32,000 nucleotides of DNA. Origin: Candidatus Saccharimonadota bacterium. GTDB lineage: Bacteria > Patescibacteriota > Patescibacteriia > 2-12-FULL-60-25. Under the pieces are notes generated by a model, which was not told the DNA's origin, did no database searches, and was given only the letters and a program-made list of their open reading frames with translations. Every line of letters begins with the position of its first letter. The stretch's first letter is position 1. The stretch lies in assembly GCA_023898425.1 (NCBI GenBank), contig CP060222.1:570001-602000 (forward strand), in the 5' to 3' direction. The position numbers and the translations under genes were made by a program. Positions 2,646 to 25,841 of this stretch are shown here, one piece after another.

Positions 2646-4127
2646 TCATCCATTTCTTACAGAAAGCCAAGTTATTGCTTCTTCATGTGTTGAGATCTCC
2701 CCACGATCGCGTGCCTCTTCAACAAGAGCCAATGTCTTTCCCATTTCTGGCCCTGGAGGTATGCCGAGCGACTTCAGATCTGCTCCATTGATTAACTGGT
2801 TCTTTTTAGGGTCAAGCCAACCAGGATTTTGTGAAAGCTGCTCTCGCAATAAGAGCGCTGGACGATCATCTCCAGACCCAGATAGCGCAAGTAGCGTTTC
2901 TAGAGAGGCTGGGTAGATTCGCTTAATAACTTTACGAACTTCATTTGCTAACTGCTTCTCTGATAGCTCATTTGCTTCAAGCGCCTTCCAAATTCTTAGC
3001 GGTTCAGACCGCTCGCTCAAAAGAGCATTAATTGGATTCACGACATCTTTTTTAGAAAAACTTGTTTTCTTTAAAAAATTCTGTACTGCTTCATTTTCTT
3101 TTCTATCTATCATCGAACAGATAGCCCCTAACATTGCCTGCAGCTGCTCATTTTCTGTAAAGACATGTTCATCATTATGTATCGTTTCAGCGACATGATC
3201 TACACGTTGCGCTAGCGAGTCCCAAGAATCCGTAAGATTAAGTTCAGGGTAATAACGCTCAATAATACCAAGCTCTTTACTCAAGCGAAGCCCTATTGAA
3301 GGGCGCTCTGATTTTAAAAGAAGCTTTCTCCACTCCTCCGTAATTCGTTCATTGGATAACTCATCTAAATCACCCCTGTCTACCATTTCTTGCATGAGAG
3401 CAAATGACTTCTCTTCTGCTCGTAGATCCATACGTGCAGCAAATTGTATCGCTCGATAGACACGAAGTGGATCATCTTGAAAACGTTCTTCGTCAGTGAC
3501 GCGTAATGTTTTGGATATTAAGTCCTCTATCCCTCCAAAATAATCTTCATATTTTCCGGTAAGTGGGTCAACAGCTAACGCATTAAACGTAAAATCACGT
3601 CGTCGAGCCGCCTCTTTGATGCTCATGGCTGGGTCTCCATGGATCTCAAAACCCTTATGACCGGCACCCACCTTAGATTCACGACGTGGGATTGATATGT
3701 CGAGATCCAGGCCATCCCCGAGGGCTACTTTAAAAATACCAAATGCTCGTCCAACCTTATTTACTTTATTGCCATAGAGTTGATCTAAAAATTCTTCAAG
3801 ACGTGCTGCCGGGACACCATAAACTTCGACGTCTGCATCCTTAGGGTGCTTTCCAATTAATGAATCTCTGGCGAATCCTCCGACGATGAGTAATGCCGGA
3901 TCATTGTCAGGATATTTCGGATCAGGCGGGCAAGATTTGACCTTGGTTGCAAGCGCGCTGACAGCGTCTAAAATACGTTTGTCTTGAGAAAACAACCTTT
4001 CGCGATGAACAGCCGGATCTGTCAGGTCCTCCATATCTTGAGGAAGATCCTGTTTTTCGGGCAAGCGTTCGGAGGCGCTAAAAGGGTTAACCGTTTCAAA
4101 AGATTGTTCCATAGGTCTCAAAAACAT
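2646..4127 (-). CDS. cca: CCA-adding enzyme / poly(A) polymerase-family tRNA nucleotidyltransferase
   Basis: Pol-beta nucleotidyltransferase motif GGFARDSLIG..KDADVEV and the RRDFTFNAL motif of class II CCA/poly(A) polymerase enzymes. No HD domain is seen. The start could instead be M6 at 4112. Confidence 0.85.
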   Translation of the reverse strand: MFLRPMEQSFETVNPFSASERLPEKQDLPQDMEDLTDPAVHRERLFSQDKRILDAVSALATKVKSCPPDPKYPDNDPALLIVGGFARDSLIGKHPKDADVEVYGVPAARLEEFLDQLYGNKVNKVGRAFGIFKVALGDGLDLDISIPRRESKVGAGHKGFEIHGDPAMSIKEAARRRDFTFNALAVDPLTGKYEDYFGGIEDLISKTLRVTDEERFQDDPLRVYRAIQFAARMDLRAEEKSFALMQEMVDRGDLDELSNERITEEWRKLLLKSERPSIGLRLSKELGIIERYYPELNLTDSWDSLAQRVDHVAETIHNDEHVFTENEQLQAMLGAICSMIDRKENEAVQNFLKKTSFSKKDVVNPINALLSERSEPLRIWKALEANELSEKQLANEVRKVIKRIYPASLETLLALSGSGDDRPALLLREQLSQNPGWLDPKKNQLINGADLKSLGIPPGPEMGKTLALVEEARDRGEISTHEEAITWLSVRNG

Positions 4128-7676: not shown

Positions 7677-8764
7677 TTATAGTTGCGACATCCACGTACG
7701 CAAAACACGAGCACGATCCTCCCAACGAAAATCTTTGATAGCACGATTGCGCGCTGCTTCTCCTAAACGTTTTTTTAATTGCGAATCTTTTCGTAATGCT
7801 TCAATCGCATCAGCGATACGACGCGGGTGATGCGGGTCTACTAGCAAACCCGTTACTCCGTCCAATACAGCCTCTGGTACACCACCGCTATTGCCCGCGA
7901 TTGCAACGAGACCAAAAAGCGCCGCCTCTAAAAAGACGATGCCGAACCCTTCAATATCATCTTCTTCTTCGCGTACTGGTAGCGCAAAAGATCTGCCGCC
8001 GCATACCATTCTTGTTTTATTTGATCAGATACGTTGGATACAAATTGTACTCGTTCACCAAAATGCTGTGCATGACGATCGAGGCGTTCGCGATCAGAAC
8101 CATCACCTAAGACAACTAACTTAACGGATGCATCTACAAAGCTCATAGACTCAATGAGGCGGTCGATTCCTTTTCGTGGCACCAACCGAGCCACCGAAAG
8201 AACCAAGGTGTCCCCTGCTCCAATGCCAAACTTCGCTCTCGAAGAGGCTTTGTCCGGTAGCTTTTGATCTTGCTCCACAGCAGGCAGTAATACTCTGAAC
8301 GACTGTCCTTTTATAATTGAATGCAATTCTTCACCTGCACGTTGTGAGTTTACGAGAACAAGCTTTGCCTTTTTGATGATCTTTCGAAAAAGCCATTGCT
8401 TAATACGAGACTTTTTTGCCAAACGAATATCAAGACCATGTAGTAATACAATATATGGAACACCGCCAAAATAGCGTGCGATCATCGCAGCTGTACCTAA
8501 CGGCAAGACGTGACTCACCATGATACCGTCATACCCTCGTCCGCGCATGGCCCACATCTGAAAAATAGAGATCCACCATCCAAAAGGACCAGGAGCAAAT
8601 AAACGGATTTTTTCTGCAGGCGCATCAATAGAATCTGGATGCGTACGATCTACAAAAACCGTAACCGTAGAACTACCTAATGCCTTGGCAAGATTCCAAA
8701 GATATCGAGCAACGCCACCTTGCTGAGGTGGATAATCGATAGTAATAAGGGCAATTTTTTTCAT
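7677..8764 (-). pseudogene. GT1/GT4-family glycosyltransferase interrupted by a single -1 frameshift
   Basis: The N-part is ORF 7928..8764 (MKKIALITIDYPPQQGGVARY). The C-part is ORF 7677..8009 (EGFGIVFLEAALFGLVAIAGNSGGVPEAVLDGVTGLLVDP, the GT1 E-x7-E region). One extra T in the run at 7986-7989 (T4 on the coding strand) joins them as ...WYAAADLFALPVREEEDDIEGFG... Confidence 0.8.
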
Positions 8765-8765
8765 A

Positions 8766-10223
8766 TTAAATCGTTTCGATAGGCTTTGATCCAGCGTATC
8801 GCTTAAACAGCCAGCCAGCCACACGTTGAACGTCAGAAATCGTCACTAAGCGTACAGCAAAATTAAGAACTAAAGCTACAAATCCAGCGCAGGCCGTCAC
8901 AATAAGCGGATGTGCAAAATAGCTTGCCCAATCTACAAAAAGCCAAATACCAGCCGCCACAATTGCACCTTGTAGATGAAGACGAATCCATGAGGTCCAG
9001 ATGACTTCATGGCGGACATACCACATACCAATCAAATAAAGGGTCACAAAACTTGCTATCGCCGACCATGCCGCACCTACGGCACCCATGGTCGGGATAA
9101 GTATCCAGTTTACCGACGCATTAATCACCATCGCAATACCCATGGCAGCCGTCTTTTGATGGGCTCTATGCGTCGCATTAAGTAAGGAGCCGATCGGAAA
9201 ATCTAAGAAAATCGGAATTAATACCCAAGCTAATACCTGCAAAATATGTGCTGACACAGCATAGGTCTCGCCGTATAAAAACGGCACAAGCACAGGTGCA
9301 AGCGCTGCGAGCAATGCCGCCATCGATACGCCAAACAGCACCATAAGACGCAATGAACCCATTAATAATACTGGCAAGGATTCTTTTTCATGTCGCGCGG
9401 CATGACTCATGCTTGGGTAAAGCGCCGCAACAAAGGCCATCGGCAAAAACTGCAGTGCATAGGTTAACTTATAGGCAACTGCATATTCACCAAGTGCTGC
9501 ATCCCCATGAAAGTGAAAGATGATCTGAGAATCGATATAGGAGTAGACTTTAACGAAGATGCCCGACAAGCCAAATGGAACTGCCATAAGCAACATATCG
9601 CGCATACTTGCCCCAGTACCCACCTGCGGCGTTAGATGTAGCCTGTAGAGCGTCTTTGAGCTCCAAAAGACATTCCAGCTACTTGCGAGCAACAGCGCTA
9701 CAATCAAACCAAATACCCCATAACCAAAATACGCTGCCGTTACTCCACTAATCGCTGCCACTGTCTGACCAACGAGCATTCCGATCGCTTCAAAGCGCAG
9801 GTCACGATAGCCACGTATAACACCATAGAACAACGTTGAGAGCGAGTCAGCCGACATGACGAGCGCTGATATCACCAATGCCCAAATCTCCATATCACGT
9901 AACCCAATCGTCCAGCCATAACTAAGAGCCGCCAAACAAGCGATTGGGATCAAAAATGCCTTTAACTGCAATGCAAAACGAAAAAATCGGCGCCCAAGCA
10001 ATGCATCACGTGCGCTCTCGCGGATAATAACTGAAGTAAGCCCAAGATCCGTAAATGTGACGAAGATCGACGTGATAGAAACGATATGAAAATACGAACC
10101 CGTTACCTCTTTACCTACTAAACGCGCAATCCAAGTAAAAGCCAAAAATGACAGCACTTTTTGCGCCGCATTCCCCACCATCAATAAGGCGGCATTTCTT
10201 GCCACGGAAGCCGCTTGAGACAT
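8766..10223 (-). CDS. MOP-superfamily polysaccharide/oligosaccharide flippase (Wzx-like)
   Basis: 485 aa with about 12-14 hydrophobic helices. The N-terminus ARNAALLMVGNAAQKVLSFLAFTWIARLVG is typical of Polysacc_synt proteins. Its stop lies 2 nt from the GT1 start. Confidence 0.8.
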   Translation of the reverse strand: MSQAASVARNAALLMVGNAAQKVLSFLAFTWIARLVGKEVTGSYFHIVSITSIFVTFTDLGLTSVIIRESARDALLGRRFFRFALQLKAFLIPIACLAALSYGWTIGLRDMEIWALVISALVMSADSLSTLFYGVIRGYRDLRFEAIGMLVGQTVAAISGVTAAYFGYGVFGLIVALLLASSWNVFWSSKTLYRLHLTPQVGTGASMRDMLLMAVPFGLSGIFVKVYSYIDSQIIFHFHGDAALGEYAVAYKLTYALQFLPMAFVAALYPSMSHAARHEKESLPVLLMGSLRLMVLFGVSMAALLAALAPVLVPFLYGETYAVSAHILQVLAWVLIPIFLDFPIGSLLNATHRAHQKTAAMGIAMVINASVNWILIPTMGAVGAAWSAIASFVTLYLIGMWYVRHEVIWTSWIRLHLQGAIVAAGIWLFVDWASYFAHPLIVTACAGFVALVLNFAVRLVTISDVQRVAGWLFKRYAGSKPIETI

Positions 10224-10233
10224 GCCTATAGGG

Positions 10234-10265
10234 TATAGAAAAACCCTTCTTTAAGGAAGGGTTTT
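10234..10265 (-). terminator. intrinsic terminator after the HD-domain gene
   Basis: The minus strand reads AAAACCCTTC-cttaaa-GAAGGGTTTT followed by TCTAT. It starts 6 nt past the stop at 10272. Confidence 0.65.
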
Positions 10266-10271
10266 AGTATT

Positions 10272-11480
10272 TTAATCTTGTTTTTCGCTAGCTTTGAGTA
10301 CTGCTGAGATGATCTTCATCTTTTTTCCAAAAGTCCTGCCTATTTCACTAATAGACCCGGTACTTACCAATTCATAGACCTTCATCGCCTCTTCATTCGT
10401 AATCTCTCCCTTTTCTGCAACCTCGTCTAGCGTAAGTTTTAACGTATCTAACGAATATTCCGTTGTCTTTGCTTCTTTCTTTCCTTTTTCAACTGCATTA
10501 CCAATATTTAATGTTGTTTGCTCAGCAAGAAGGCTCCGTAAATAACTTTCAAGTTTTTTCTTATCCAAGCCACCTACTAAGGACAACTCGCTCGTTATTT
10601 CTTCGATAGATTCTGCGTTGTCCTTGGATGTAAGTAGAAACGAAAAATTCGTTAGATCTGGCTCACCTTCTTGGCGATATGATGATGCGGTGTCAATGTA
10701 TGAGGCAAAAAGCGCTAACTGTTTATGCTCTTCACTTAATTCACCAAAAAGTTTTTTATAGGTATCTGGTTTTACCTTTTCAAATTGATAAGCCGCCTCA
10801 TGTAGCTCAATTGCTTTCAATATTTCTACATCGACTACTCCTTCATATTCATCGCCAACATGCTCAGCACCATGCTCACCATGCTTTGCGCTTTCTGTTT
10901 TACGTCCATTTTCATTTTCTATTCCTTGATGGTAGTACGAGACTCCTTTGATACCTTGAGATGAGAAAAATTCGGCCATCCGTTGAGGATCTGACGTCTC
11001 TTCATTGCTTAAACCATGTTCGGAACGAAATTCTTCGATATTTCCTTCCCATGCTCGTCCCTTCTTTTCGCCTGCTTTAGGATCCCACTGAATACGAAGT
11101 AGATCCGGCTTACTAATATCGTGCAAAAAAACATACTTTTTAAGCGTATCTCCATATTGCTTCACAAGCTCATTAAACGAAGCACGTGTTTTTTCAGGCA
11201 AGTTGCCACCTCCCTCTCCACGGTCAAAACTTTCGATCACTTCAATCATTCTGTTTAGATGAGTATCCATTAATATACCCTCGTTGTGATATTCACCCCA
11301 TTGCGGCACCTCAAAGCTTCTCGTAATTTTTTCGCGTAGCGCTTCATAATTTTCACCAGAAAACAATCGCTCTACTTCAGCCGTAAGTCGCTCTAGACGC
11401 CCTGGTCTCTGTTCTTTTTTCTGCCGCAATTCGCTCAGGTGTAAGAAATTTAAAACCCTCCTTCTTTTCACTACCTTCAT
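10272..11480 (-). CDS. HD-domain phosphohydrolase-like protein (402 aa)
   Basis: It carries YHNEGILMDTHL followed by YVFLHDISKP, the H...HD...K(P) pattern of the HD superfamily. From memory this is closest to the HD domain fused to class II CCA enzymes. The rest is Glu/Lys-rich and unassigned. Confidence 0.6.
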   Translation of the reverse strand: MKVVKRRRVLNFLHLSELRQKKEQRPGRLERLTAEVERLFSGENYEALREKITRSFEVPQWGEYHNEGILMDTHLNRMIEVIESFDRGEGGGNLPEKTRASFNELVKQYGDTLKKYVFLHDISKPDLLRIQWDPKAGEKKGRAWEGNIEEFRSEHGLSNEETSDPQRMAEFFSSQGIKGVSYYHQGIENENGRKTESAKHGEHGAEHVGDEYEGVVDVEILKAIELHEAAYQFEKVKPDTYKKLFGELSEEHKQLALFASYIDTASSYRQEGEPDLTNFSFLLTSKDNAESIEEITSELSLVGGLDKKKLESYLRSLLAEQTTLNIGNAVEKGKKEAKTTEYSLDTLKLTLDEVAEKGEITNEEAMKVYELVSTGSISEIGRTFGKKMKIISAVLKASEKQD

Positions 11481-11526
11481 TTTGCTGTGTCATACGATAT
11501 TAATGTTATATTTAATTAAAACTAAT

Positions 11527-13884
11527 TTAATAACCCATTTCTGTCATTATAGCATCAATAGCCTTGCGTGCATCAGGAGACGGCTGATCAAGGTCACGAA
11601 ATGCGATATTTTTAATCATTTTAACTAACTTACCTGTTGAGCTCGCTTCAAATGACTTGCCCGATTCCGAAACGCGTTTATTAATATAGAGATCAATGCG
11701 ACCGCTCGTATCATAAAAACCTCTTTTAAACGCTTCTTTTGCTGTTCTTTTGCCTCTGAGTTTTCTTGACCAGCGTTTGGTGCGGATGCTTTTTTCGTCA
11801 CTCGCCTCGACCGGCGAAAATTCTTCAAATGCAGGTGCAATAAACCTTCTAGAAATTTCTTGAAAATCTTTTTCTGTCCAGTCATCACCAAAGTTAGCTT
11901 TGTCTAAGCCTTTTACTTCTCTCCCTATAGACATCATGTCTATTTTGAGCATCATTGCGTCAAACACAAGAGGCTCCTTTTCTTCAAGCTCCTGCAATGA
12001 TTGCAGTCTTTTCATAAAGTTTTTTGGCAGTCTCCGTGCCATGATAACGTCTCCTTTTGGAAACTTATCCGTCGTTGATAACTCAGCGGCAAATCCATGT
12101 CTACGCAGATACTCAACACGAGCCATATCAATCTTCTTCATCGCACGATTGCCCTCTTCGAGACGTCTTAGCGCCCGTTCTCTTGCCTTTCCTGGTTGCT
12201 CAGGTATCTCGGTATTTGTAAGGTCAGAGCTATGACATAGGTCTTCCCATTCATTTTGACTAAATCCATAGCGCGCAGGCTCACTCGCCGCTTTACCCTG
12301 ACAACAAGTCATCGCTACTAACATACCGCTTTCTGATTCTCTCCACTGAGAGATAATATCATCCGTAAGCGTCCCACAAGCATGCTTTGCCACAACCATC
12401 GCGTCTGGCGTTATATGCGCATCCTGTAAATAGCCGGTATTATGAACAACGATCTTTTCTAAATCCTCGCGAAAAGGAAGATAGTCGATAATTGTATTCA
12501 TAAATTCTGATACGCCCTCTTGCGGATCTACGATTTCTGTATGAGTAATATCTTTGCCACGAGAAAGCAGCTCCGTTGTCACTGCCAGCCCTAAATCTCC
12601 CGCTCCACCAGCCATGTCTACAACAGAATGAATATTATCTGGCAATACATCAAAGTTTGCAGCCATGAGCTCACTCACATGCTTTAACTCATCGACTTTT
12701 TGCGCCATTTTTTCTGATATCTTTTTTCGTAATAATTCTCGGTCCTGCTCCGAGACTTTTTTGCCTTGAGTTTGACGCTTTTTCTCTAATTGCCTTTGCG
12801 CATCCATAAAGACATAATTCGCGCGGATAAAATGTAGCTGATTGTAAAATTCGTCTCTTGGACGAGATAAAGCCAATGATGAAGAGAGTTCTTTTTTAAC
12901 AGGGTCTTTTGAACGACGTAGAAAACCTTCCGGTAAACGATCTTCTCGCATCCCAAGCTCTTCACGTGCGGCTTCGGTTGTTTGCATTATGCGCGTGTGG
13001 CCAAGCGCATCTTCTGCAATTTCGATCGCTTCTCTTTTTTCATTCGTAGCTCTTACTATCGAAGAAGCAAGATCAAAGCTTCTTGTGAGAATAACTAAAA
13101 GACCAGGATGCACCTTTTTAATGACTTTTTGACCTTCACTATTAACAAAATACGTTACCATTCTCTCTGGATCACGTTCATCCGGTGCTACGAGTTTTTC
13201 TAAACCAACTGATTCAATACGAGTATCATCTATTTCTTGACGCGCTCCAACATAGACCCAACCTTCTGCGTCTTGAACAATACCCGCTTCGTATCCACTA
13301 ATCGCCATAGGCAAGAAAGAAGCAAAACCCTCACCAATAGGTACACTTTTTTCTGTATCGTCTTTTTCAAAACGAATATTTTTCGCTGCTTGTTCTAAAA
13401 GTTGATTTTGGGCATGCGCAAAATATTCCTCGGGATCATTTTTTGCCTGAGTAAGCTGTGATTTTATTCTTTCGATATCCTTGCTAAATTCTGCGTCGTT
13501 TAAGTCCCGCTCTCGTTCATATCCTATCGTTTCAGCTCCAACCAACATAAACCACGCCTTCATCTCTGGTGATTCTGGCTTTGCCAGCTCCGCTGCATAT
13601 CCCCATGGCCCTGTTTGCTGGATACCAACACAAAGCGCTACTAACTCATTGTAAATACGCTTAGATTCTTCTGGCGTAGCTCCGAGCTTTTTTACGACAT
13701 CTTTTACGAGCGAATTTGTTTCATTATAAGCTAATATACCAACTTCATTTAACCCTATACGTAAACGATCCTGGAGGGACTTTATGCCGTACTTCTCTGC
13801 AAAAGCATCAAGCTGTTCACCAACAACCTCCTTTATATCAGAAGGAGTCGTTGCTTTTGGTACAAATGGATTTTCTTTATTCAT
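11527..13884 (-). CDS. large (785 aa) protein with a central class I SAM-dependent methyltransferase domain (TRM13/Methyltransf_32-like signature) and unassigned N- and C-terminal regions
   Basis: SAM motif I VVDMAGGAGDLGLAV is followed by an acidic motif II (EIVDPQ) and by VVAKHACGTLTDDII...AMTCCQGK. No DNA-methyltransferase motifs (DPPY/NPPY or PC...ENV), P-loop or ligase KxDG were seen. Confidence 0.6.
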   Translation of the reverse strand: MNKENPFVPKATTPSDIKEVVGEQLDAFAEKYGIKSLQDRLRIGLNEVGILAYNETNSLVKDVVKKLGATPEESKRIYNELVALCVGIQQTGPWGYAAELAKPESPEMKAWFMLVGAETIGYERERDLNDAEFSKDIERIKSQLTQAKNDPEEYFAHAQNQLLEQAAKNIRFEKDDTEKSVPIGEGFASFLPMAISGYEAGIVQDAEGWVYVGARQEIDDTRIESVGLEKLVAPDERDPERMVTYFVNSEGQKVIKKVHPGLLVILTRSFDLASSIVRATNEKREAIEIAEDALGHTRIMQTTEAAREELGMREDRLPEGFLRRSKDPVKKELSSSLALSRPRDEFYNQLHFIRANYVFMDAQRQLEKKRQTQGKKVSEQDRELLRKKISEKMAQKVDELKHVSELMAANFDVLPDNIHSVVDMAGGAGDLGLAVTTELLSRGKDITHTEIVDPQEGVSEFMNTIIDYLPFREDLEKIVVHNTGYLQDAHITPDAMVVAKHACGTLTDDIISQWRESESGMLVAMTCCQGKAASEPARYGFSQNEWEDLCHSSDLTNTEIPEQPGKARERALRRLEEGNRAMKKIDMARVEYLRRHGFAAELSTTDKFPKGDVIMARRLPKNFMKRLQSLQELEEKEPLVFDAMMLKIDMMSIGREVKGLDKANFGDDWTEKDFQEISRRFIAPAFEEFSPVEASDEKSIRTKRWSRKLRGKRTAKEAFKRGFYDTSGRIDLYINKRVSESGKSFEASSTGKLVKMIKNIAFRDLDQPSPDARKAIDAIMTEMGY

Positions 13885-13890
13885 AGGATT

Positions 13891-14763
13891 TTAGGTTGAA
13901 AGCGTACGCTGTGTTATGGATGATTCTGCTACATTCTTCCATTCAGACTCTAGGGCAATATCTTGAGTAAGTCGGAGCACTTTCTGTAGCTGACTTCTTA
14001 TGGCCTGTAGATCTTCATATCGCTGTTGGCGTTTAGCCGCCGTTTTTGATTGAGTGTCTGCTGTTTTCGATTTTTCATCTTGCTGGAGCTCATGTAATAA
14101 CTCCATTTGTAAATGTATTTGTGAATACGCTTGTTCGACGAGTAAGCGCCTTAGTGGATGACTTTCTGTTATGGGCTTATCTTCCTTTGCAACGAGTTTG
14201 AATGTATCTTCTTCTGCTCCGAGCACAACGATAGGCATAGATGCTCTTAGCTCTTTTGGTTTGTCGTGTTCATACTCGATACGTGACCGTAAATACTTGA
14301 TCTGACAATTTGCTTCTATTTTCTCACTTTTCTTCATAAACACTCTAAAATGTTTTGTTGAGGTAAAGTCTATCGCCATCCTTATAGGTTTTTGGTCATC
14401 ATCAAGCCATTCTACGTAGGCATCTGCTCCTGATATCCAATCATCATAATCCGTTGTTGGAGACATCTCTCCGCCAAACCATTGATGCTTCATAGCGACC
14501 GTTGTTAAAAAATTTTCAAACGCAAAAGCATCCGGGCCATCAGTAAACTGCTGGCTCAAGCCACCACGACTCATTTTTTTCTGCAACAAAACACTATCTC
14601 TTAGCTTTGATGTCTCTGAAACATGCGTAAACGACTCTATATTCGGACGTTCTACTGCTTTTCCTTCTCCCGAAGTCTTGTACTGATCAAAATAATGCCA
14701 GATACTTTTTGCAGTCTCTGCAGAGTGAGTAAGAAATGGATTTAGAAAGCGAGACTCTGACAT
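13891..14763 (-). CDS. hypothetical protein (290 aa), first gene of the three-gene cassette
   Basis: A clean ORF whose stop is 6 nt before the methyltransferase-fusion start. It has an acidic segment (DYDDWISGADAYVEWLDDD...AIDFTSTKH) and a Gln/Lys-rich helical tail. No family recognised. Confidence 0.7.
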   Translation of the reverse strand: MSESRFLNPFLTHSAETAKSIWHYFDQYKTSGEGKAVERPNIESFTHVSETSKLRDSVLLQKKMSRGGLSQQFTDGPDAFAFENFLTTVAMKHQWFGGEMSPTTDYDDWISGADAYVEWLDDDQKPIRMAIDFTSTKHFRVFMKKSEKIEANCQIKYLRSRIEYEHDKPKELRASMPIVVLGAEEDTFKLVAKEDKPITESHPLRRLLVEQAYSQIHLQMELLHELQQDEKSKTADTQSKTAAKRQQRYEDLQAIRSQLQKVLRLTQDIALESEWKNVAESSITQRTLST

Positions 14764-14773
14764 AGCAATAACC

Positions 14774-14782
14774 CAATGATAG
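14774..14782 (-). promoter_or_regulatory. extended -10 promoter (TGcTATCAT) 10 nt upstream of the cassette's first ATG
   Basis: The minus strand reads ggTGcTATCATtgggttattgctATG. No good -35 box and no Shine-Dalgarno are present, so the transcript would be near-leaderless. Confidence 0.4.
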
Positions 14783-14793
14783 CACCCGATCTT

Positions 14794-14826
14794 ACAATAT
14801 AAAACCCTTCCAATCGGAAGGGTTTT
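14794..14826 (-). terminator. intrinsic terminator after the SPFH gene
   Basis: The minus strand reads AAAACCCTTCC-gatt-GGAAGGGTTTT followed by ATATTGT. It lies 20 nt past the stop at 14847. Confidence 0.65.
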
Positions 14827-14846
14827 ATATTGACTGTTGCCTACGT

Positions 14847-15653
14847 TTAACGACTAATACTACCGATATTTACGAATGGTGTCGCACCGCTACCCATAAC
14901 TGATGGGAGTTTACCATCCCATTTTTCAATGGCGCGTAATTCTAGTACCGCTGGACTGGATTTAATTGCCTCTGACTCAACGCGCAACGCTTCTGCCTTA
15001 CCACGAGCTTCTGCGATACGTTGCTCTGCCTCAAACTTTACCTGCTCAAGACGATTACGCGCTGTAAGCGCAGCTTGCTCAGCCGTAACCTTGGCTTCAA
15101 TAGCTGCATTGAATGACTCAGAGAAATCAAAGTTTACAATATTAAAGTCATCGATTTCGATACCACGAGGCGTGAGTTTTGTTTGAAGGAGTGATTTCAT
15201 CTCTTCACGTACCTCTTCGCGACGAGTCACGAGCTCTTCTGCTGTAAACTTGGCTGTTGTTGCTTTAACCGTCTCTTGAAGAGCAGGGTCGATGATTCTT
15301 ACTTTGTATTCAGGTCCGACATCACGATACATCGCTACAACCATCTCTGGCTTAATATGAAAGTTGGCAGCTACGGTGCTTTGTACGCTCTGCAAGTCTT
15401 TTGAAGCTGCTGTCGCCTCAACCTGCTCTTTTTGAAGACGAACGTCCATTACGGCAACGCTCTCAACAATAGGCATTCTGAAATAAAGACCTTCAGACAC
15501 TACGCGGCCTGTAACAGCGCCAAAACGCAACATCACACCACGGCTACCCGCAGGGATCATGCCAAACGGAATAAGAGAGAAAAACAAGATAACAGCCAAA
15601 AGGCCACCAACAACCCACGCAATAATTTTAGGAGTACTCATATACGCTAACAT
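14847..15653 (-). CDS. SPFH/band-7 (prohibitin/HflC-like) membrane protein
   Basis: An N-terminal TM helix (IIAWVVGGLLAVILFFSLIPFG), an SPFH core (GSRGVMLRFGAVTGRVVSEGLYFRMP) and a coiled coil (AEQAALTARNRLEQVKFEAEQRIAEARGKAEA). I take the start as ATG 15653 or 15641. The ORF-track start at 15827 would overlap the upstream gene. Confidence 0.8.
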   Translation of the reverse strand: MLAYMSTPKIIAWVVGGLLAVILFFSLIPFGMIPAGSRGVMLRFGAVTGRVVSEGLYFRMPIVESVAVMDVRLQKEQVEATAASKDLQSVQSTVAANFHIKPEMVVAMYRDVGPEYKVRIIDPALQETVKATTAKFTAEELVTRREEVREEMKSLLQTKLTPRGIEIDDFNIVNFDFSESFNAAIEAKVTAEQAALTARNRLEQVKFEAEQRIAEARGKAEALRVESEAIKSSPAVLELRAIEKWDGKLPSVMGSGATPFVNIGSISR

Positions 15654-15750
15654 TAGGATTATTATGGATAAAATGCAAGAAATCAAATGACCCCGCCCGA
15701 CACACCCACCCAGAAGTAGGCGAGGTGTCGGACGAGGTCGAGAGATGAGA

Positions 15751-16176
15751 CTATTCACGCACTGCAAGAAATCGATAGCTACCGTTGAATCCGTGGTTGT
15801 CACAGGTATCATACAGCTGCAGACCAAGGCCTTCTTTGCATAAGAAGGGCGCTTCGGAAAATCTCGTTATGGAACCGAGAGCGAGTATCCGATGCTTTAA
15901 TCTCTCATCGGGGTACGCTTTATCGAAGCTCATGAGCTCTTCATAGAGAGCCGGCCGAACTTTATTGTAAAACATTAACCCCATTACTTCACTAAACGAG
16001 TCTAAATCATTAATGCGAACATACTCGAATAGAATCTCGCGATTCTTCGTTGATACATTCTTACAAAACTCAATCGGAACAAGCCTCCTATCCTGATTGC
16101 GAGTTTCTCGACCCGGCTTAGTGATCGTTTTGTAGCCCGAGTTAAGGTAGTTAGGAAATCGACACTCTAACTCCAC
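15751..16176 (-). CDS. hypothetical protein. The track ORF starts at GTG 16176, but the true start is probably ATG 16289 with one base missing in a T5/A5 run
   Basis: The reading frame stays open 25 codons upstream of the GTG with no canonical start. An ATG at 16289 in the +1 frame joins it if the A-run (coding strand) at 16229-16233 gains one base. A promoter lies at 16334-16362. Confidence 0.6.
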   Translation of the reverse strand: MELECRFPNYLNSGYKTITKPGRETRNQDRRLVPIEFCKNVSTKNREILFEYVRINDLDSFSEVMGLMFYNKVRPALYEELMSFDKAYPDERLKHRILALGSITRFSEAPFLCKEGLGLQLYDTCDNHGFNGSYRFLAVRE

Positions 16177-16333
16177 GAACTCTGGCTGAACGTAGACGAC
16201 AAATACCTTGAATACCGACTTACCCTGATTTTTGCTGTATTGTTTCCAAATTTATCCTTTCGCACTGGCTTATACTTCGCTCTAGTCATTAGCGCCCTGA
16301 ATTAAGCCACCGCTGTATAAATGTACGTGTATT

Positions 16334-16362
16334 GTATTACCATAAATTGCCTCTTTTGTCAA
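16334..16362 (-). promoter_or_regulatory. sigma70-like promoter TTGACA-17-TAATAC with TGn extension
   Basis: The minus strand reads TTGACAaaagaggcaatttaTGgTAATAC, directly downstream of the rpsI terminator. Confidence 0.5.
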
Positions 16363-16372
16363 TTTACGAAGA

Positions 16373-16398
16373 GATATAAAAACTCCCCTTTCTGGGAG
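16373..16398 (-). terminator. intrinsic terminator after rpsI
   Basis: The minus strand reads CTCCC-agaaag-GGGAG followed by TTTTTATATC, about 20 nt past the rpsI stop. Confidence 0.55.
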
Positions 16399-16420
16399 AT
16401 TTTGTTTCGGATGAAGCAGA

Positions 16421-24005: not shown

Positions 24006-24044
24006 AAGAAAGTGGAATGTGCTGATCCTACCGAAAAGAAGGGT

Positions 24045-25841
24045 TTAGAGCAAGAATAGATCTTTCGCCTCAGAGTCTAGTGTTATTTCTTTACCTACCC
24101 AATCAACATCTATCATTGGAAGTCTAAGTATGGGGATATGATATTCGCGTGCCACGATCGCCATATGAGACAAGGTTCCACCAACTGAAGTGATAATCCC
24201 TCTTAACTTTGGTAAATAGCTTGCTAAGTCAGGCGTTAATTCGTGCGTAAAGAGTATTGGATCTTGTACTGTATCGATCTGTTCAAGCATCACAATTATG
24301 CCCTTCGCTTTACCTGCCGATAAATAGAGCGATTCACTTGGTCGAAACATTGCCGTCGATAGGCGTCTCGGTAGCCCATACTGTGGCTTTGCTTGCCTTG
24401 TTGTTAGTACGTCTGGTTGATATTGCTTTAACCATTCTCGTAATGCGTTCATAAGCATTACCGCATACCAACGACCGTATTCACGTATTGCATCCGCATA
24501 AATAGCTGCTGACAAATATCGATCTTCTAAGCGTAGAGATTGTTGATTATTCTTTGGTCTCACAAGAAACTGCCTAGGCAAAAAGACGCTCGTGTCAGAG
24601 AGACTAAAGACATTGCCAATCACATGCATTGGAGCCGCTATTACATCTTCTGCATCGATTAGCTCATGTGGCTTAAGATGTGGCCAGCGCTTTTTTGCAA
24701 ATTTTGCATCCTCCAATAGACTCGTAGAAAGAAGATTTGCTGCAAATACACTTTCATATTCTTGATAGATCCAATGCAACATCTCATCTAATGTAGTTAC
24801 TAATGGCGCTTGAGTAGAATGCATTTTATTACGAAGCTCATTTATGAATGGCTTTGCTTGAAGTTTTGCTCTTTGTAATCTTGCTTGATTGAGCCATCCT
24901 CGCAAACCACCTTGAAACAAAGCGCGCTCAATAGCCGTATCAACAAAAACGGTTTGCCCGATCACACGTAAAGGACTCGTGATTGTGCCTTTTATACCGA
25001 ATCGTTTATAGGCGCGTTCAACAGGTCCATCTTTTTGAAAAAGACCTTGTAGCAACTCAAGCATAAAGGCATCCGCGTGAGGCGCTAACTCTGCATAACC
25101 ATCTTGCACATAATCATAAGCATGGCGCGGCAGCGTTTCTTCTATTTTTTGAAAAAATCGTTCTTGTTCTACGTTTATTGTTGTGATTGGCCGTGATTGT
25201 AAAAGATATGCCTCGTGGTTTACCACACACCACTCGATATCTTGAGGCATGCCAAAGAATCGCTCAACACTTAACGCGAGCTGGCATAAACGTTTATCAA
25301 CTCCCGTTAATGCCGGTTGATAACGCCTTGGATAAAAGCTCGTGTCTGGTGTTTGCTTTCCAGCTACTAACATTTCTCCAAATCCTTTTACCTGATCACA
25401 CTGAATGCAAAATGGATCTATAGGTGATCTTGTAAATACTACGCCCGCGACATCCGGTAGAAGGCAATGTTGCACGATAAGCGCATGACGAGCATTTGGT
25501 GCGCGTTCTCTATTTGATGCTGACACTTTTTTTATTGCATCTAGCAACCCATCAAACGCAACTGGTAGCAATGTCATAAATTGCCCCGCCATAGAATGAC
25601 CTGCTTGATCTTCTATGTCAGAAGCAGAACGAACGGCAAAAGGACCGTCCCCAATTTCATTTTGGATACGGCTTCTCTCCTCATCAGTCCATTCGTTTTT
25701 AGAATCAACAAGGTTTATTTGCTGAAAACCAATACAGAGAAAATTTGGTACTCGAAAACCTACGTCTTTAAGACGATGTAACTGGTACGCTTTTGAACCA
25801 ACATTGTTTTGCTGGATATCATCTTTATCGAGAAAGATCAT
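24045..25841 (-). CDS. dikinase-like protein: PPDK_N-type ATP-grasp nucleotide-binding domain plus C-terminal PEP-utilizer swivel phosphohistidine domain
   Basis: N-terminal motifs VGSKAYQLHRLKDVGFRVPNF, FAVRSASDIED..SMAGQF, VVFTRSP and DIEWCVV..AYLLQSRPIT. The C-terminus has GIITSVGGTLSHMAIVAREYHIPIL. The central ~270 aa are unassigned. Confidence 0.75.
   Translation of the reverse strand: MIFLDKDDIQQNNVGSKAYQLHRLKDVGFRVPNFLCIGFQQINLVDSKNEWTDEERSRIQNEIGDGPFAVRSASDIEDQAGHSMAGQFMTLLPVAFDGLLDAIKKVSASNRERAPNARHALIVQHCLLPDVAGVVFTRSPIDPFCIQCDQVKGFGEMLVAGKQTPDTSFYPRRYQPALTGVDKRLCQLALSVERFFGMPQDIEWCVVNHEAYLLQSRPITTINVEQERFFQKIEETLPRHAYDYVQDGYAELAPHADAFMLELLQGLFQKDGPVERAYKRFGIKGTITSPLRVIGQTVFVDTAIERALFQGGLRGWLNQARLQRAKLQAKPFINELRNKMHSTQAPLVTTLDEMLHWIYQEYESVFAANLLSTSLLEDAKFAKKRWPHLKPHELIDAEDVIAAPMHVIGNVFSLSDTSVFLPRQFLVRPKNNQQSLRLEDRYLSAAIYADAIREYGRWYAVMLMNALREWLKQYQPDVLTTRQAKPQYGLPRRLSTAMFRPSESLYLSAGKAKGIIVMLEQIDTVQDPILFTHELTPDLASYLPKLRGIITSVGGTLSHMAIVAREYHIPILRLPMIDVDWVGKEITLDSEAKDLFLL

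What the first reader, a model, noticed from the sequence alone, without database searches (positions are those of the whole stretch)
10234..14826. Self-contained three-gene cassette of unknown function: 290-aa orphan, 785-aa methyltransferase fusion, 402-aa HD phosphohydrolase
Seen in the sequence:
- The three co-directional genes are tightly spaced (6-nt and 46-nt gaps).
- They have their own extended -10 promoter (TGcTATCAT) 10 nt from the first ATG and their own terminator.
- They are wedged between a glycan operon and an SPFH gene, and bracketed by two hairpins with identical arms.
- None is a recognisable housekeeping gene.

Domain reading:
- The middle protein has a class I SAM methyltransferase core whose KHACG-x-x-TD signature resembles, from memory, TRM13/Methyltransf_32 RNA 2'-O-methyltransferases.
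- The last protein has an HD motif pair (HNEG...DTH / LHDISKP) like the phosphodiesterase/phosphatase domain fused to some CCA enzymes.

Inference:
- An RNA 2'-O-methylase-like enzyme plus an end-processing phosphohydrolase plus an unknown partner recalls the logic of RNA end-healing/methylation modules such as Pnkp-Hen1.
- I saw no kinase P-loop and no ligase KxDG motif. If this is RNA repair or modification, it is non-canonical.
- A defence or symbiosis-related role is equally open.
Basis: partly seen in the sequence, partly recalled or inferred. Interest (0 to 1): 0.72.

Follow-up and report, generated by a model that had tools for sequence, protein, structure and literature searches.

The report
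Candidate tRNA-end repair and methylation cassette
Three adjacent genes in a tiny uncultured bacterium (Candidate Phyla Radiation) seem to be the smallest version of an undescribed, lineage-specific gene set that probably heals and methylates damaged RNA ends, most likely of tRNA, and two of its parts resemble no solved protein structure.

Summary
Three co-directional minus-strand genes sit between an SPFH gene and a glycan operon, flanked by two near-identical hairpins: A (290 aa), B (785 aa) and C (402 aa), with gaps of 6 and 46 nt.

- **B** is a Methyltransf_32 (TRM13-related) SAM methyltransferase with a unique N-terminal domain.
- **C** misses Pfam HD on its own. Its family carries an invariant H..H..HD..H..H..D signature and aligns to the HD "repair" domain of CCA-adding enzymes (hhalign P=2e-5).
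- **A** gives a confident model (pLDDT 88) with no structural match, and so does B's N-domain (pLDDT 83).

All three families were found only in Patescibacteria-type contigs. The cassette is not self-contained. A–B is the fixed core. In relatives it sits next to a CCA-adding-type nucleotidyltransferase, C-like HD proteins, 2H phosphoesterases, a P-loop kinase-like protein and stand-alone copies of B's N-domain.

Nucleotidyltransferases with an intact HD domain occur without A or C. Those with a dead or missing HD come with A, and often with C.

Best reading (about 0.45): a ligase-less RNA (tRNA 3'-end) healing and methylation module. Main rival: a constitutive tRNA-modification enzyme. Composition is only slightly AT-rich, and there is no link to defence systems or phages. 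New variant of a known kind.

The parts
14795..14832 (-). Upstream hairpin (17-nt arms, 4-nt loop, then a T-run). It is probably the intrinsic terminator of the SPFH gene, and it shares the arm AAAACCCTTCC with the downstream hairpin.
   Evidence: (I4)
14776..14803 (-). Promoter-like site: TTTATA, 16 nt, TG-c-TATCAT (extended -10). It ends 12 nt before the ATG of A, which implies a very short leader.
   Evidence: a consensus match only, and such matches are not enriched over shuffles
13891..14763 (-). Gene A (290 aa): an orphan that is the constant partner of B. The model is confident: an alpha/beta core (residues 82-194) followed by a long helical hairpin. The invariant residues include many acidic and basic ones (E83, D107, D108, D114, E118, D132, K145, K148, K156). 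It matches no Pfam, PDB or BFVD entry.
12985..13884 (-). B, N-terminal domain (residues 1 to about 300): a helical bundle plus a small beta subdomain, present in all B homologs. It also occurs as stand-alone paralogs in relatives (L001, L003, L013, L031, L033, L051). It has no structural match.
12700..12984 (-). B, linker and helical region (residues about 301-395). Residues 294-334 are modelled with low confidence.
12025..12699 (-). B, class I SAM methyltransferase domain (Pfam Methyltransf_32, residues 396-531, extending to about 620). The motifs DMAGGAGDxGL, VDPQ and AKHACGxLxD are invariant, as are Cys503, 527 and 528; Cys550 is nearly invariant (90% or more).
11527..12024 (-). B, C-terminal extension (residues about 621-785; basic). 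It is missing from the roughly 600-aa B homologs (L015-L018, L039, L047, L050).
10272..11480 (-). Gene C (402 aa): a divergent HD-superfamily metal-dependent phosphoesterase. P59, Q60, H65, E67, H74, H120-D121, H200 and D263 are invariant; H227 is nearly so. A helical C-terminal half follows.
10240..10265 (-). Downstream hairpin (11 pairs, with flanking A and T runs), the probable terminator of the cassette. Its arms match those of the upstream hairpin.
14847..15650 (-). Context, membership uncertain: SPFH/Band_7 gene directly upstream. It holds the same position in L023 and L028. The likely true start is near 15639-15651, not 15827.
2646..4127 (-). Context, membership uncertain: a class II CCA-adding-type nucleotidyltransferase (PolyA_pol + PolyA_pol_RNAbd + tRNA_NucTran2_2) with no HD domain. 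It lies 6 kb downstream on the same strand and is the candidate partner that C would serve in trans.

Best explanation
The cassette is the minimal form of a modular gene set, found here only in Patescibacteria-type contigs, that acts on RNA ends, most likely the 3'/acceptor end of tRNA.

Proposed flow; every step is inferred and none has been shown biochemically:
1. A damaged end carrying a 2',3'-cyclic or 3'-phosphate is healed by C. C is a stand-alone two-metal HD phosphoesterase homologous to the HD 'repair' domain of multifunctional CCA-adding enzymes.
2. A class II CCA-adding-type nucleotidyltransferase rebuilds the end. It is adjacent in many relatives. In this genome the candidate is the HD-less enzyme at 2646-4127.
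3. B, a Methyltransf_32/TRM13-type SAM methyltransferase with its own N-terminal recognition domain, methylates the RNA. By analogy with TRM13 and Hen1 this would be a ribose 2'-O near the end, which would block renewed cleavage.
4. A is B's obligate partner, a subunit or specificity factor. It has an unmatched fold and a conserved charged pocket that could even be catalytic.

There is no ligase, so the system would repair ends rather than internal breaks.
For: **Shown**
- B passes the Pfam Methyltransf_32 threshold and keeps its SAM motifs. TRM13 is the only other Pfam family that several (7 of 39) B relatives match.
- C's family (201 representative clusters) keeps P59, Q60, H65, E67, H74, H120-D121, H200 and D263 invariant, and H227 nearly so. 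Pfam HD is hit by 28 of 99 members, far more than any other family.
- hhalign of the C core against CCA-type HD regions gives P=1.9e-5, probability 78%, with the motifs aligned one to one.

**Context**
- A PolyA_pol-family nucleotidyltransferase lies within about 3 kb of B or A-B, and directly next to them in most cases, in L001, L003, L009, L011, L012, L019, L029, L034, L036, L037, L044, L049, L050 and the P0007 contig. It occurs in four different arrangements.
- C or C-like genes lie within a few kb in the window, L023, L001, L003, L013, L020, L029, L031, L047 and L051.
- 2H phosphoesterases (PF22547) occur in L013, L019 and L049.
- A P-loop kinase-like protein occurs in L001 and L049.
- L049 encodes nucleotidyltransferase-HD, 2H, Methyltransf_32 and the P-loop protein in a row.

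**Complementarity**
- Nucleotidyltransferases with an intact HD motif (L009, L011, L012, L036) have no A or C nearby.
- Those with a degenerate or missing HD have A next to B in L001, L003, L029, L034 and L050; the window's own HD-less enzyme lies 6 kb from its A-B-C. For L044 the 2.9-kb contig is too short to tell. C or a C-like gene is also near in L001, L003, L029 and the window.

**Background knowledge (mine, not tested here)**
- The HD domain of the E. coli CCA enzyme has 2',3'-cyclic phosphodiesterase and phosphatase activities.
- TRM13 makes Nm4 in the tRNA acceptor stem.
- 2H enzymes are RNA cyclic phosphodiesterases (PMC4201822).
- Clustering of HD, kinase and methyltransferase genes is an accepted pointer to RNA repair (PMC6097658).
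Against: - No substrate or activity is known for any component. The chemistry of Methyltransf_32 enzymes is unsettled: METTL25 has no known function and METTL25B's is called unclear (PMC8662637).
- The window protein C fails Pfam HD on its own.
- C homologs also occur alone in unrelated neighbourhoods. Several full-length B genes have none of the partners within 10 kb (L005, L008, L014).
- In the window itself the nucleotidyltransferase is 6 kb away behind a glycan operon and is probably just the housekeeping CCA enzyme. L023 has none within 10 kb.
- No tRNA gene or known RNA motif is consistently linked.
- A and B's N-domain have no assignable function.
- Linkage to a CCA enzyme fits ordinary tRNA maturation as well as it fits repair.
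Confidence: 0.45

Rival explanations
1. Constitutive tRNA modification. A-B is a two-subunit tRNA methyltransferase, a TRM13-like writer with an accessory subunit as in Trm8-Trm82 or Trm9-Trm112. It installs a lineage-specific modification during normal tRNA maturation. The CCA enzyme, the HD protein and the 2H protein are neighbours only because they also belong to routine tRNA 3'-end processing, and no damage response is involved.
For: - The Methyltransf_32 and TRM13 signals.
- Tight A-B coupling: a 6-nt gap here and overlapping genes in L031 and L034.
- The cassette lies among housekeeping genes, at the same chromosomal position in a 72%-identical relative.
- No compositional anomaly.
- Several B genes stand alone.
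- The linked nucleotidyltransferase may simply be the cell's only CCA enzyme.
Against: - B is rare. Pattern scans found 17 loci among 185,579 species genomes and 22 among 241 million metagenome records. The protein search found 52 clusters. That is unusual for a core modification enzyme.
- Routine maturation does not need the recurrent co-location with cyclic-phosphodiesterase-type enzymes of two unrelated folds (HD and 2H) and a P-loop kinase-like protein.
- A evolves much faster (57% identity) than its flanks (81-89%) between the window and L023.
Confidence: 0.3
2. The substrate is not an RNA end. B methylates a protein, a small molecule or a nucleotide. C is an HD hydrolase of a nucleotide signal or metabolite, for example (p)ppGpp, a cyclic dinucleotide or a dNTP. 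The cassette is a small metabolic or signalling module.
For: - HD proteins with the six-ligand two-metal motif include nucleotide hydrolases and even oxygenases. The weak PDB hits of the C profile are to dGTPase, TmpB and Cas3-HD.
- The substrates of Methyltransf_32 enzymes are largely unknown.
- C occurs alone elsewhere.
- An alpha/beta hydrolase recurs in some relatives.
Against: - It does not explain the repeated, rearranged linkage of B to PolyA_pol nucleotidyltransferases.
- It does not explain the reciprocal pattern between the nucleotidyltransferase's own HD domain and the presence of A and C.
- It does not explain why C's best profile match is the CCA-type HD domain.
Confidence: 0.13
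3. A conflict system, such as toxin-immunity or anti-phage defence. A is a nuclease-like effector, with weak PD-(D/E)xK-like structural echoes. B and C modify or protect the cell's own RNA. The identical flanking hairpins would mark a mobile insert.
For: - A evolves fast.
- Sub-threshold Foldseek hits of A include BamHI, BsaWI, DUF2726, UL24 and 'PD-(D/E)XK' proteins.
- Patchy distribution.
- Slightly low GC.
- Matching hairpins at both ends.
Against: - All structural hits have E >= 0.13 and TM <= 0.25.
- No PADLOC family hit below E=0.02.
- No homologs in phage genomes or viral contigs.
- No integrase, transposase or direct repeats.
- The cassette is at the same locus in L023, without the hairpins.
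- Codon usage is ordinary.
Confidence: 0.07

Closest known systems
Multifunctional CCA addition/repair protein (E. coli-type Cca: class II nucleotidyltransferase fused to an HD phosphohydrolase; NCBIfam PRK10885)
   Same: - C shares the motif order and spacing of this HD domain. QxxxYHxEGxxxxxH matches QExEWHPEGDVWxH, LHDISKP matches CHDLGKP, KHGEHG matches SHGHD, and HE matches EH. The profile-profile comparison gives P=1.9e-5.
- Relatives of the cassette carry exactly this kind of fused enzyme next to B (L009, L011, L012, L036, L049).
   Different: - C is a separate 402-aa protein with no nucleotidyltransferase domain and an extra helical C-terminal half.
- It fails the Pfam HD threshold.
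- The linked nucleotidyltransferases fall below the NCBIfam equivalog cut-offs.
- A methyltransferase and protein A are not part of the classical enzyme.
Bacterial Pnkp-Hen1 RNA repair system (my background knowledge: Chan, Zhou and Huang 2009; also cited in PMC6097658)
   Same: The logic is the same: end-healing phosphoesterase plus a methyltransferase that would mark the repaired end, encoded together.
   Different: - There is no ligase, and no kinase in the window.
- The methyltransferase is Methyltransf_32/TRM13-type, not Hen1.
- The phosphoesterase is an HD protein, not calcineurin-type.
- The partner polymerase is a CCA-adding-type enzyme, which implies end rebuilding rather than resealing.
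Runella slithyformis candidate repair cluster (HD-Pnk, ligase, Tpt1, MTase-HIT; PMC6097658)
   Same: An HD 2',3'-phosphoesterase and a SAM methyltransferase are clustered. In L001 and L049 a P-loop kinase-like protein joins them.
   Different: - The HD protein and the kinase-like protein are separate here.
- There is no ligase, Tpt1 or HIT domain.
- No sequence relationship to that cluster was found.
- A and B's N-domain have no counterpart.
Yeast TRM13 tRNA 2'-O-methyltransferase (Pfam PF05206; function from my background knowledge)
   Same: The catalytic-domain type is related: Methyltransf_32 with a KHxCGxxTD-like motif. Seven of 39 B relatives give weak TRM13 hits, and P0047 has both families on record.
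   Different: - The window protein has no TRM13 hit at E<=1.
- It has no matches to TRM13-type zinc fingers.
- It has a roughly 390-aa unique N-terminal region, a C-terminal extension and a dedicated partner, A.
Modular RNA-repair 'syntax' of Burroughs and Aravind 2016 (NAR 44:8525; the reference was verified, the content is from my memory and the paper is not held)
   Same: Nucleotidyltransferase, end-modifying phosphoesterases or kinase, protective methylase and possible SPFH/Band-7 scaffold are shuffled between loci. An SPFH gene flanks the cassette here and in L023.
   Different: - No ligase (ATP-grasp or RtcB) appears in any of the loci seen.
- I could not check whether this particular Patescibacteria set was listed in that survey.

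Membership tests
Methyltransf_32 (Pfam PF13679) | Score above the Pfam gathering threshold | tested here: met
   45.3 bits against a cut-off of 27, residues 396-531. All 39 aligned relatives match.
Methyltransf_32 (Pfam PF13679) | Intact class I SAM-binding motifs (glycine-rich motif I, acidic motif II) | tested here: met
   D423-MAGGAGD-430, G432 and V452-D453-P-Q are invariant in 39 sequences.
TRM13 tRNA 2'-O-methyltransferase (PF05206) | Match to the TRM13 catalytic-domain model | tested here: not met
   The window protein has no hit at E<=1. Seven of 39 relatives hit only weakly, best E=3.8e-4.
TRM13 tRNA 2'-O-methyltransferase (PF05206) | N-terminal TRM13-type zinc-finger domains | tested here: not met
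   No zinc-finger family appears in the Pfam scan of B. The N-terminal 395 residues fold as an unrelated helical plus beta domain.
TRM13 tRNA 2'-O-methyltransferase (PF05206) | 2'-O-methylation of tRNA position 4 | not testable with these tools
   This needs biochemistry.
HD metal-dependent phosphohydrolase superfamily (PF01966) | H...HD...D metal-ligand motif conserved | tested here: met
   H65, H74, H120-D121, H200 and D263 are invariant, and H227 is 90% or more conserved, in 99-139 family members.
HD metal-dependent phosphohydrolase superfamily (PF01966) | Significant match to an HD profile | tested here: inconclusive
   The window protein has no Pfam hit. Of 99 family members, 28 hit PF01966 at E<=1, best 7.3e-5. 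hhalign against CCA-type HD regions gives P=1.9e-5, probability 78%. PDB profile hits to HD proteins have E of only 0.7-0.9.
Multifunctional CCA addition/repair protein | Class II nucleotidyltransferase head and neck fused to the HD domain | tested here: not met
   C has no PolyA_pol domain. Only the HD part is alike. Fused forms exist in relatives.
Pnkp-Hen1 RNA repair | Polynucleotide kinase P-loop, phosphatase and ligase adenylyltransferase domains, plus a Hen1 methyltransferase | tested here: not met
   None of these families appears in the Pfam or NCBIfam scans of A, B or C. A P-loop protein exists only in the relatives L001 and L049. No ligase was seen in any locus.
PD-(D/E)xK nuclease fold (for A) | Structural match to the alpha-beta-beta-beta-alpha-beta core with catalytic D...(D/E)xK | tested here: inconclusive
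   Only sub-threshold Foldseek hits were found: BamHI E=1.1, BsaWI E=2.9, DUF2726 E=0.58, with TM<=0.25. The secondary-structure order and E83/D114/D132/K145 are compatible with the fold but not diagnostic.
Known anti-phage defence systems (PADLOC-DB 2.0) | Match of any component to a defence-system model | tested here: not met
   A and B have no hits. C has only AbiEi at E=0.024.

The most novel reading that the evidence does not exclude
Patescibacteria carry a ligase-independent pathway that repairs and then immunises tRNA 3' ends.
- A stand-alone HD phosphoesterase (C), or alternatively a 2H phosphoesterase, removes the terminal phosphate.
- A dedicated CCA-type nucleotidyltransferase, which has lost its own HD active site, rebuilds the end.
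- A TRM13-like methyltransferase (B) acts as a complex with A, a protein of a previously unseen fold. It methylates the acceptor end so that it cannot be cleaved again.
- A and B's N-domain would be new RNA-recognition or catalytic folds.
Probability: 0.3. Interest if true: 0.8.

Novelty: new variant of a known kind. Interest (0 to 1): 0.63.

Why it matters
Patescibacteria have tiny genomes and are thought to live attached to hosts, so what they spend genes on is informative. If this reading is right, it would be the first RNA-repair-type module described for this group. It would also be the first to couple a CCA-adding-type enzyme to a TRM13/Methyltransf_32 methyltransferase without a ligase.

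It would assign a biochemical role to the poorly understood Methyltransf_32 family, which includes human METTL25 and METTL25B. It would also provide two confidently modelled domains with no match among solved structures, A and B's N-domain.

The pattern in which the nucleotidyltransferase loses its HD site while a separate C protein appears is a clean natural experiment on splitting a bifunctional enzyme. All the proteins are small and soluble-looking, so the hypothesis can be tested directly in vitro.

Tried and rejected
**Sequence searches of the solved-structure database**
- A, B and C gave nothing meaningful as single sequences.
- Profiles gave only chance-level hits. These included an artefact with designed 'Pizza' propeller proteins for B.

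**Structure searches**
- Foldseek of the A model against PDB and BFVD, and of the B N-domain model against PDB, returned no hit with E<=0.001.
- The echoes of PD-(D/E)xK for A and of DHH for B's N-domain are too weak to use.

**Family and defence scans**
- PADLOC and NCBIfam scans of the three proteins gave nothing.
- The Pfam scan of all 25 A homologs gave nothing.

**Mobile or viral origin**
- Phage genomes and IMG/VR viral contigs hold no homologs.
- Mobile-insert idea rejected: the hairpins are not conserved in L023, the chromosomal position is the same in L023, and GC and codon usage are within the genomic range.

**RNA elements**
- Rfam at gathering and at E-value thresholds, and ARAGORN on the window and 23 loci, found no linked tRNA or known RNA element.

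**Other proteins in the neighbourhood**
- I tested whether three unknowns from other loci are distant A homologs: the f18 family of about 260 aa, the 324-aa protein of L020 and the 273-aa protein of L001. They are not (P>=0.006).
- The 273-aa protein turned out to be a stand-alone B N-domain paralog.
- A direct HMMER search of the C profile against the nucleotidyltransferase-HD proteins was not significant. Only the profile-profile comparison was.

**Literature**
- The Burroughs and Aravind 2016 survey could not be read because it is not held.

Full report
**1. What is in the window**

Three minus-strand ORFs fill 14763..10272: A (290 aa), B (785 aa) and C (402 aa). A and B are 6 nt apart. B and C are 46 nt apart, separated by an AT-rich spacer.

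Upstream of A lies a perfect 17-bp hairpin (14795-14832), followed by a TG-extended -10-like TATCAT that ends 12 nt before the ATG. Downstream of C lies an 11-bp hairpin (10240-10265) with the same arm sequence, AAAACCCTTC. Four of the five exact copies of the 9-mer in the 32 kb window are these arms. Promoter-like consensus matches are not enriched in the region, so the promoter is plausible but unproven.

An identical copy of A is annotated as coming from a Candidatus Magasanikbacteria genome (P0072), so the window comes from a Patescibacteria (CPR) organism.

**2. The proteins**

*B.* It passes the Pfam threshold for Methyltransf_32 (45.3 bits against 27; residues 396-531) and matches nothing else. 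In 39 homologs the SAM motifs, a KHACGxLxD motif and three cysteines (503, 527, 528) are invariant, and Cys550 is nearly so. TRM13 is the only other family that several homologs (7 of 39) touch, and only weakly.

A model of residues 1-395 is confident (pLDDT 82.6). It shows a helical bundle plus a small beta subdomain. No PDB entry matches better than E=0.07.

*A.* It has no family hit in Pfam, NCBIfam or PADLOC. Its model is confident (pLDDT 87.6, pTM 0.85): an alpha/beta core followed by a long helical hairpin. Nothing in PDB or BFVD reaches E<=0.001. Restriction-enzyme-like and other PD-(D/E)xK proteins recur among the sub-threshold hits. I treat that as a lead only.

*C.* It has no Pfam HD hit of its own. 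An exhaustive profile search defines a discrete family of 201 representative clusters.

- Across 99-139 members, P59, Q60, H65, E67, H74, H120-D121, H200 and D263 are invariant, and H227 nearly so. This is the six-ligand pattern of two-metal HD enzymes.
- Pfam HD is hit by 28 of 99 members, best E=7e-5. The next most frequent family has 7 members.
- Some family members are fused to a second, canonical HD domain.
- A profile-profile comparison of the C core with the HD regions of CCA-type nucleotidyltransferases and those fusions gives P=1.9e-5. It aligns motif to motif (compare).

I conclude that C is a divergent HD phosphoesterase.

**3. Conservation and context**

All homologs come from Patescibacteria-type contigs. 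None is in phage genomes or viral contigs.

In a relative with 72%-identical B (L023), the order SPFH-(YkuD)-A-B-C-flippase-glycosyltransferases is kept. The cassette is therefore not a recent insert. Its hairpins are not conserved there, and its GC and codon usage lie within the window's range. Between the two genomes A is 57% identical, B 72% and C 81%, while the flanking genes are 81-89% identical.

I examined about 35 independent loci. They were gathered through B and, as an unbiased check, through A. The pattern is as follows.

- **A is always next to a B-type gene.** The order is usually A-B and once B-A (L050).
- **A PolyA_pol (CCA-adding-type) nucleotidyltransferase lies close to B or A-B in 14 loci.** It is directly adjacent in most and within about 3 kb in L019 and L050, and it occurs in four different arrangements.
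- **C or C-like genes lie within a few kb in 10 loci**.
- **2H phosphoesterases (PF22547) appear in L013, L019 and L049**.
- **A P-loop kinase-like protein appears in L001 and L049**.
- **Stand-alone copies of B's N-domain appear in six loci**.
- **L049 encodes nucleotidyltransferase-HD, 2H, a short Methyltransf_32 and the P-loop protein in a row**.

There are exceptions. C homologs at 40-44% identity also occur alone. Some B genes have none of these neighbours within 10 kb (L005, L008, L014).

**4. A telling complementarity**

I aligned the B-linked nucleotidyltransferases.

| HD motif in the nucleotidyltransferase | Loci | A or C nearby? |
|---|---|---|
| Intact (WHPEGDVWxHT...CHDLGKP...H.HD) | L009, L011, L012, L036, L049 | None in the first four; L049 has a 2H enzyme |
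| Degenerate (HD changed to SN or GN), deleted or absent | L001, L003, L029, L034, L044, L050 and the window's own enzyme (6 kb away) | A next to B in L001, L003, L029, L034 and L050; the window has A-B-C; the L044 contig is too short to tell; C or C-like in L001, L003, L029 and the window |

The simplest reading is that the HD function has been moved to a separate polypeptide, C, in the clade that also gained A.

**5. Mechanism**

The recurring parts are these:
- a nucleotidyltransferase of the CCA-adding class;
- end-healing phosphoesterases of two unrelated folds that replace one another;
- an occasional kinase-like P-loop protein;
- a methyltransferase of the type related to TRM13.

Together they match the accepted signature of RNA end repair with protective methylation, as in Pnkp-Hen1, the Runella HD-Pnk cluster (PMC6097658) and 2H cyclic phosphodiesterases (PMC4201822). 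No ligase is present. I therefore favour repair of an RNA terminus, most plausibly the tRNA CCA/acceptor end, rather than resealing of internal breaks.

| Status | Claim |
|---|---|
| Shown | Domain identities, conservation and gene linkage |
| Inferred | Substrate, chemistry (2'-O), order of steps, an A-B complex and any role for the neighbouring SPFH gene |

My confidence is about 0.45. The main rival, at about 0.3, is a constitutive, lineage-specific tRNA-modification enzyme that is linked to the CCA enzyme for ordinary maturation. Against it stand the rarity of B, the cyclic-phosphodiesterase and kinase-like neighbours, and A's fast evolution. Against repair stand the housekeeping surroundings and the stand-alone B genes. 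A non-RNA substrate (about 0.13) and a conflict system (about 0.07) are less likely.

**6. Comparison and novelty**

B is a member of Methyltransf_32 but not demonstrably of TRM13. C belongs to the HD superfamily by motif and profile-profile evidence, but it is not a CCA enzyme. The cassette fails the defining features of Pnkp-Hen1: it has no kinase, ligase or Hen1.

I found no paper on Methyltransf_32 enzymes in bacteria. I could not read the 2016 survey of RNA repair systems, so prior listing of this gene set cannot be excluded.

I rate it a new variant of a known kind: RNA end-healing and methylation cassettes. It has two components without structural relatives among solved structures. Interest 0.63.

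Noticed in passing
window 7677-8824 (minus strand): The GT4 glycosyltransferase gene is split into two overlapping ORFs (298 aa and 110 aa) by a frameshift near 7985. The intact 367-aa L023 ortholog aligns in frame -3 for residues 2-265 and in frame -2 for residues 265-367. This is either a pseudogene or an assembly error.
   Followed up: yes
window 15651-16420 (minus strand): There is an unusually long stretch of about 770 nt between rpsI and the probable true start of the SPFH gene. It holds a 141-aa ORF (15751..16176) of unknown function and a G+C-rich hairpin just before the SPFH start. The 326-aa SPFH ORF listed from a TTG at 15827 is probably over-extended, since the L023 ortholog is 264 aa.
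   Followed up: partly
window 2646-4127 (minus strand): The window's own CCA-adding-type nucleotidyltransferase (PolyA_pol + RNAbd + tRNA_NucTran2_2) has no HD region. It is more distant from the B-linked nucleotidyltransferases than those are from each other. In L023 this position is taken by a second DUF3108-like gene.
   Followed up: partly
L049 3104-7933: A compact four-gene row encodes nucleotidyltransferase with intact HD, a 2H phosphoesterase, a 429-aa Methyltransf_32 protein that lacks B's N-domain, and a 352-aa P-loop kinase-like protein (a homolog of L001 13998-15047, E=3e-101). This is the clearest repair-like version of the gene set.
   Followed up: partly
P0111, P0140, P0180 (about 1100 aa); P0118, P0195: The C-type domain is fused to a second, canonical Pfam HD domain plus about 400 uncharacterised residues. 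In other proteins it is fused to DUF6687.
   Followed up: partly
L029 7361-8197; L033 978-1823; L051 3250-4095: An alpha/beta hydrolase recurs upstream of A-B in three loci. In L033 and L051 it comes with a protein of about 477 aa (weak DHH hit for the L033 copy, E=6e-4) and a 215-aa unknown. A separate unknown family of about 260 aa (f18) recurs next to A or B in L006, L016, L029 and L043.
   Followed up: partly
window A against L023 A: A is only 57% identical between the two related genomes. B is 72% and C 81% identical, and the flanking genes 81-89%. A is the fastest-evolving gene of the neighbourhood.
   Followed up: yes
window 24038-24046 (minus strand): A fifth exact copy of the hairpin-arm 9-mer AAACCCTTC lies at the end of another gene (24045..25841). 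It may be a similar terminator.
   Followed up: no
L011 3703-4518; L018 1-441: SPFH/Band_7 genes also lie within 10 kb of B in two distant loci. This is too loose to call linkage, but SPFH modules have been proposed as scaffolds of RNA repair systems (from my memory of Burroughs and Aravind 2016).
   Followed up: no
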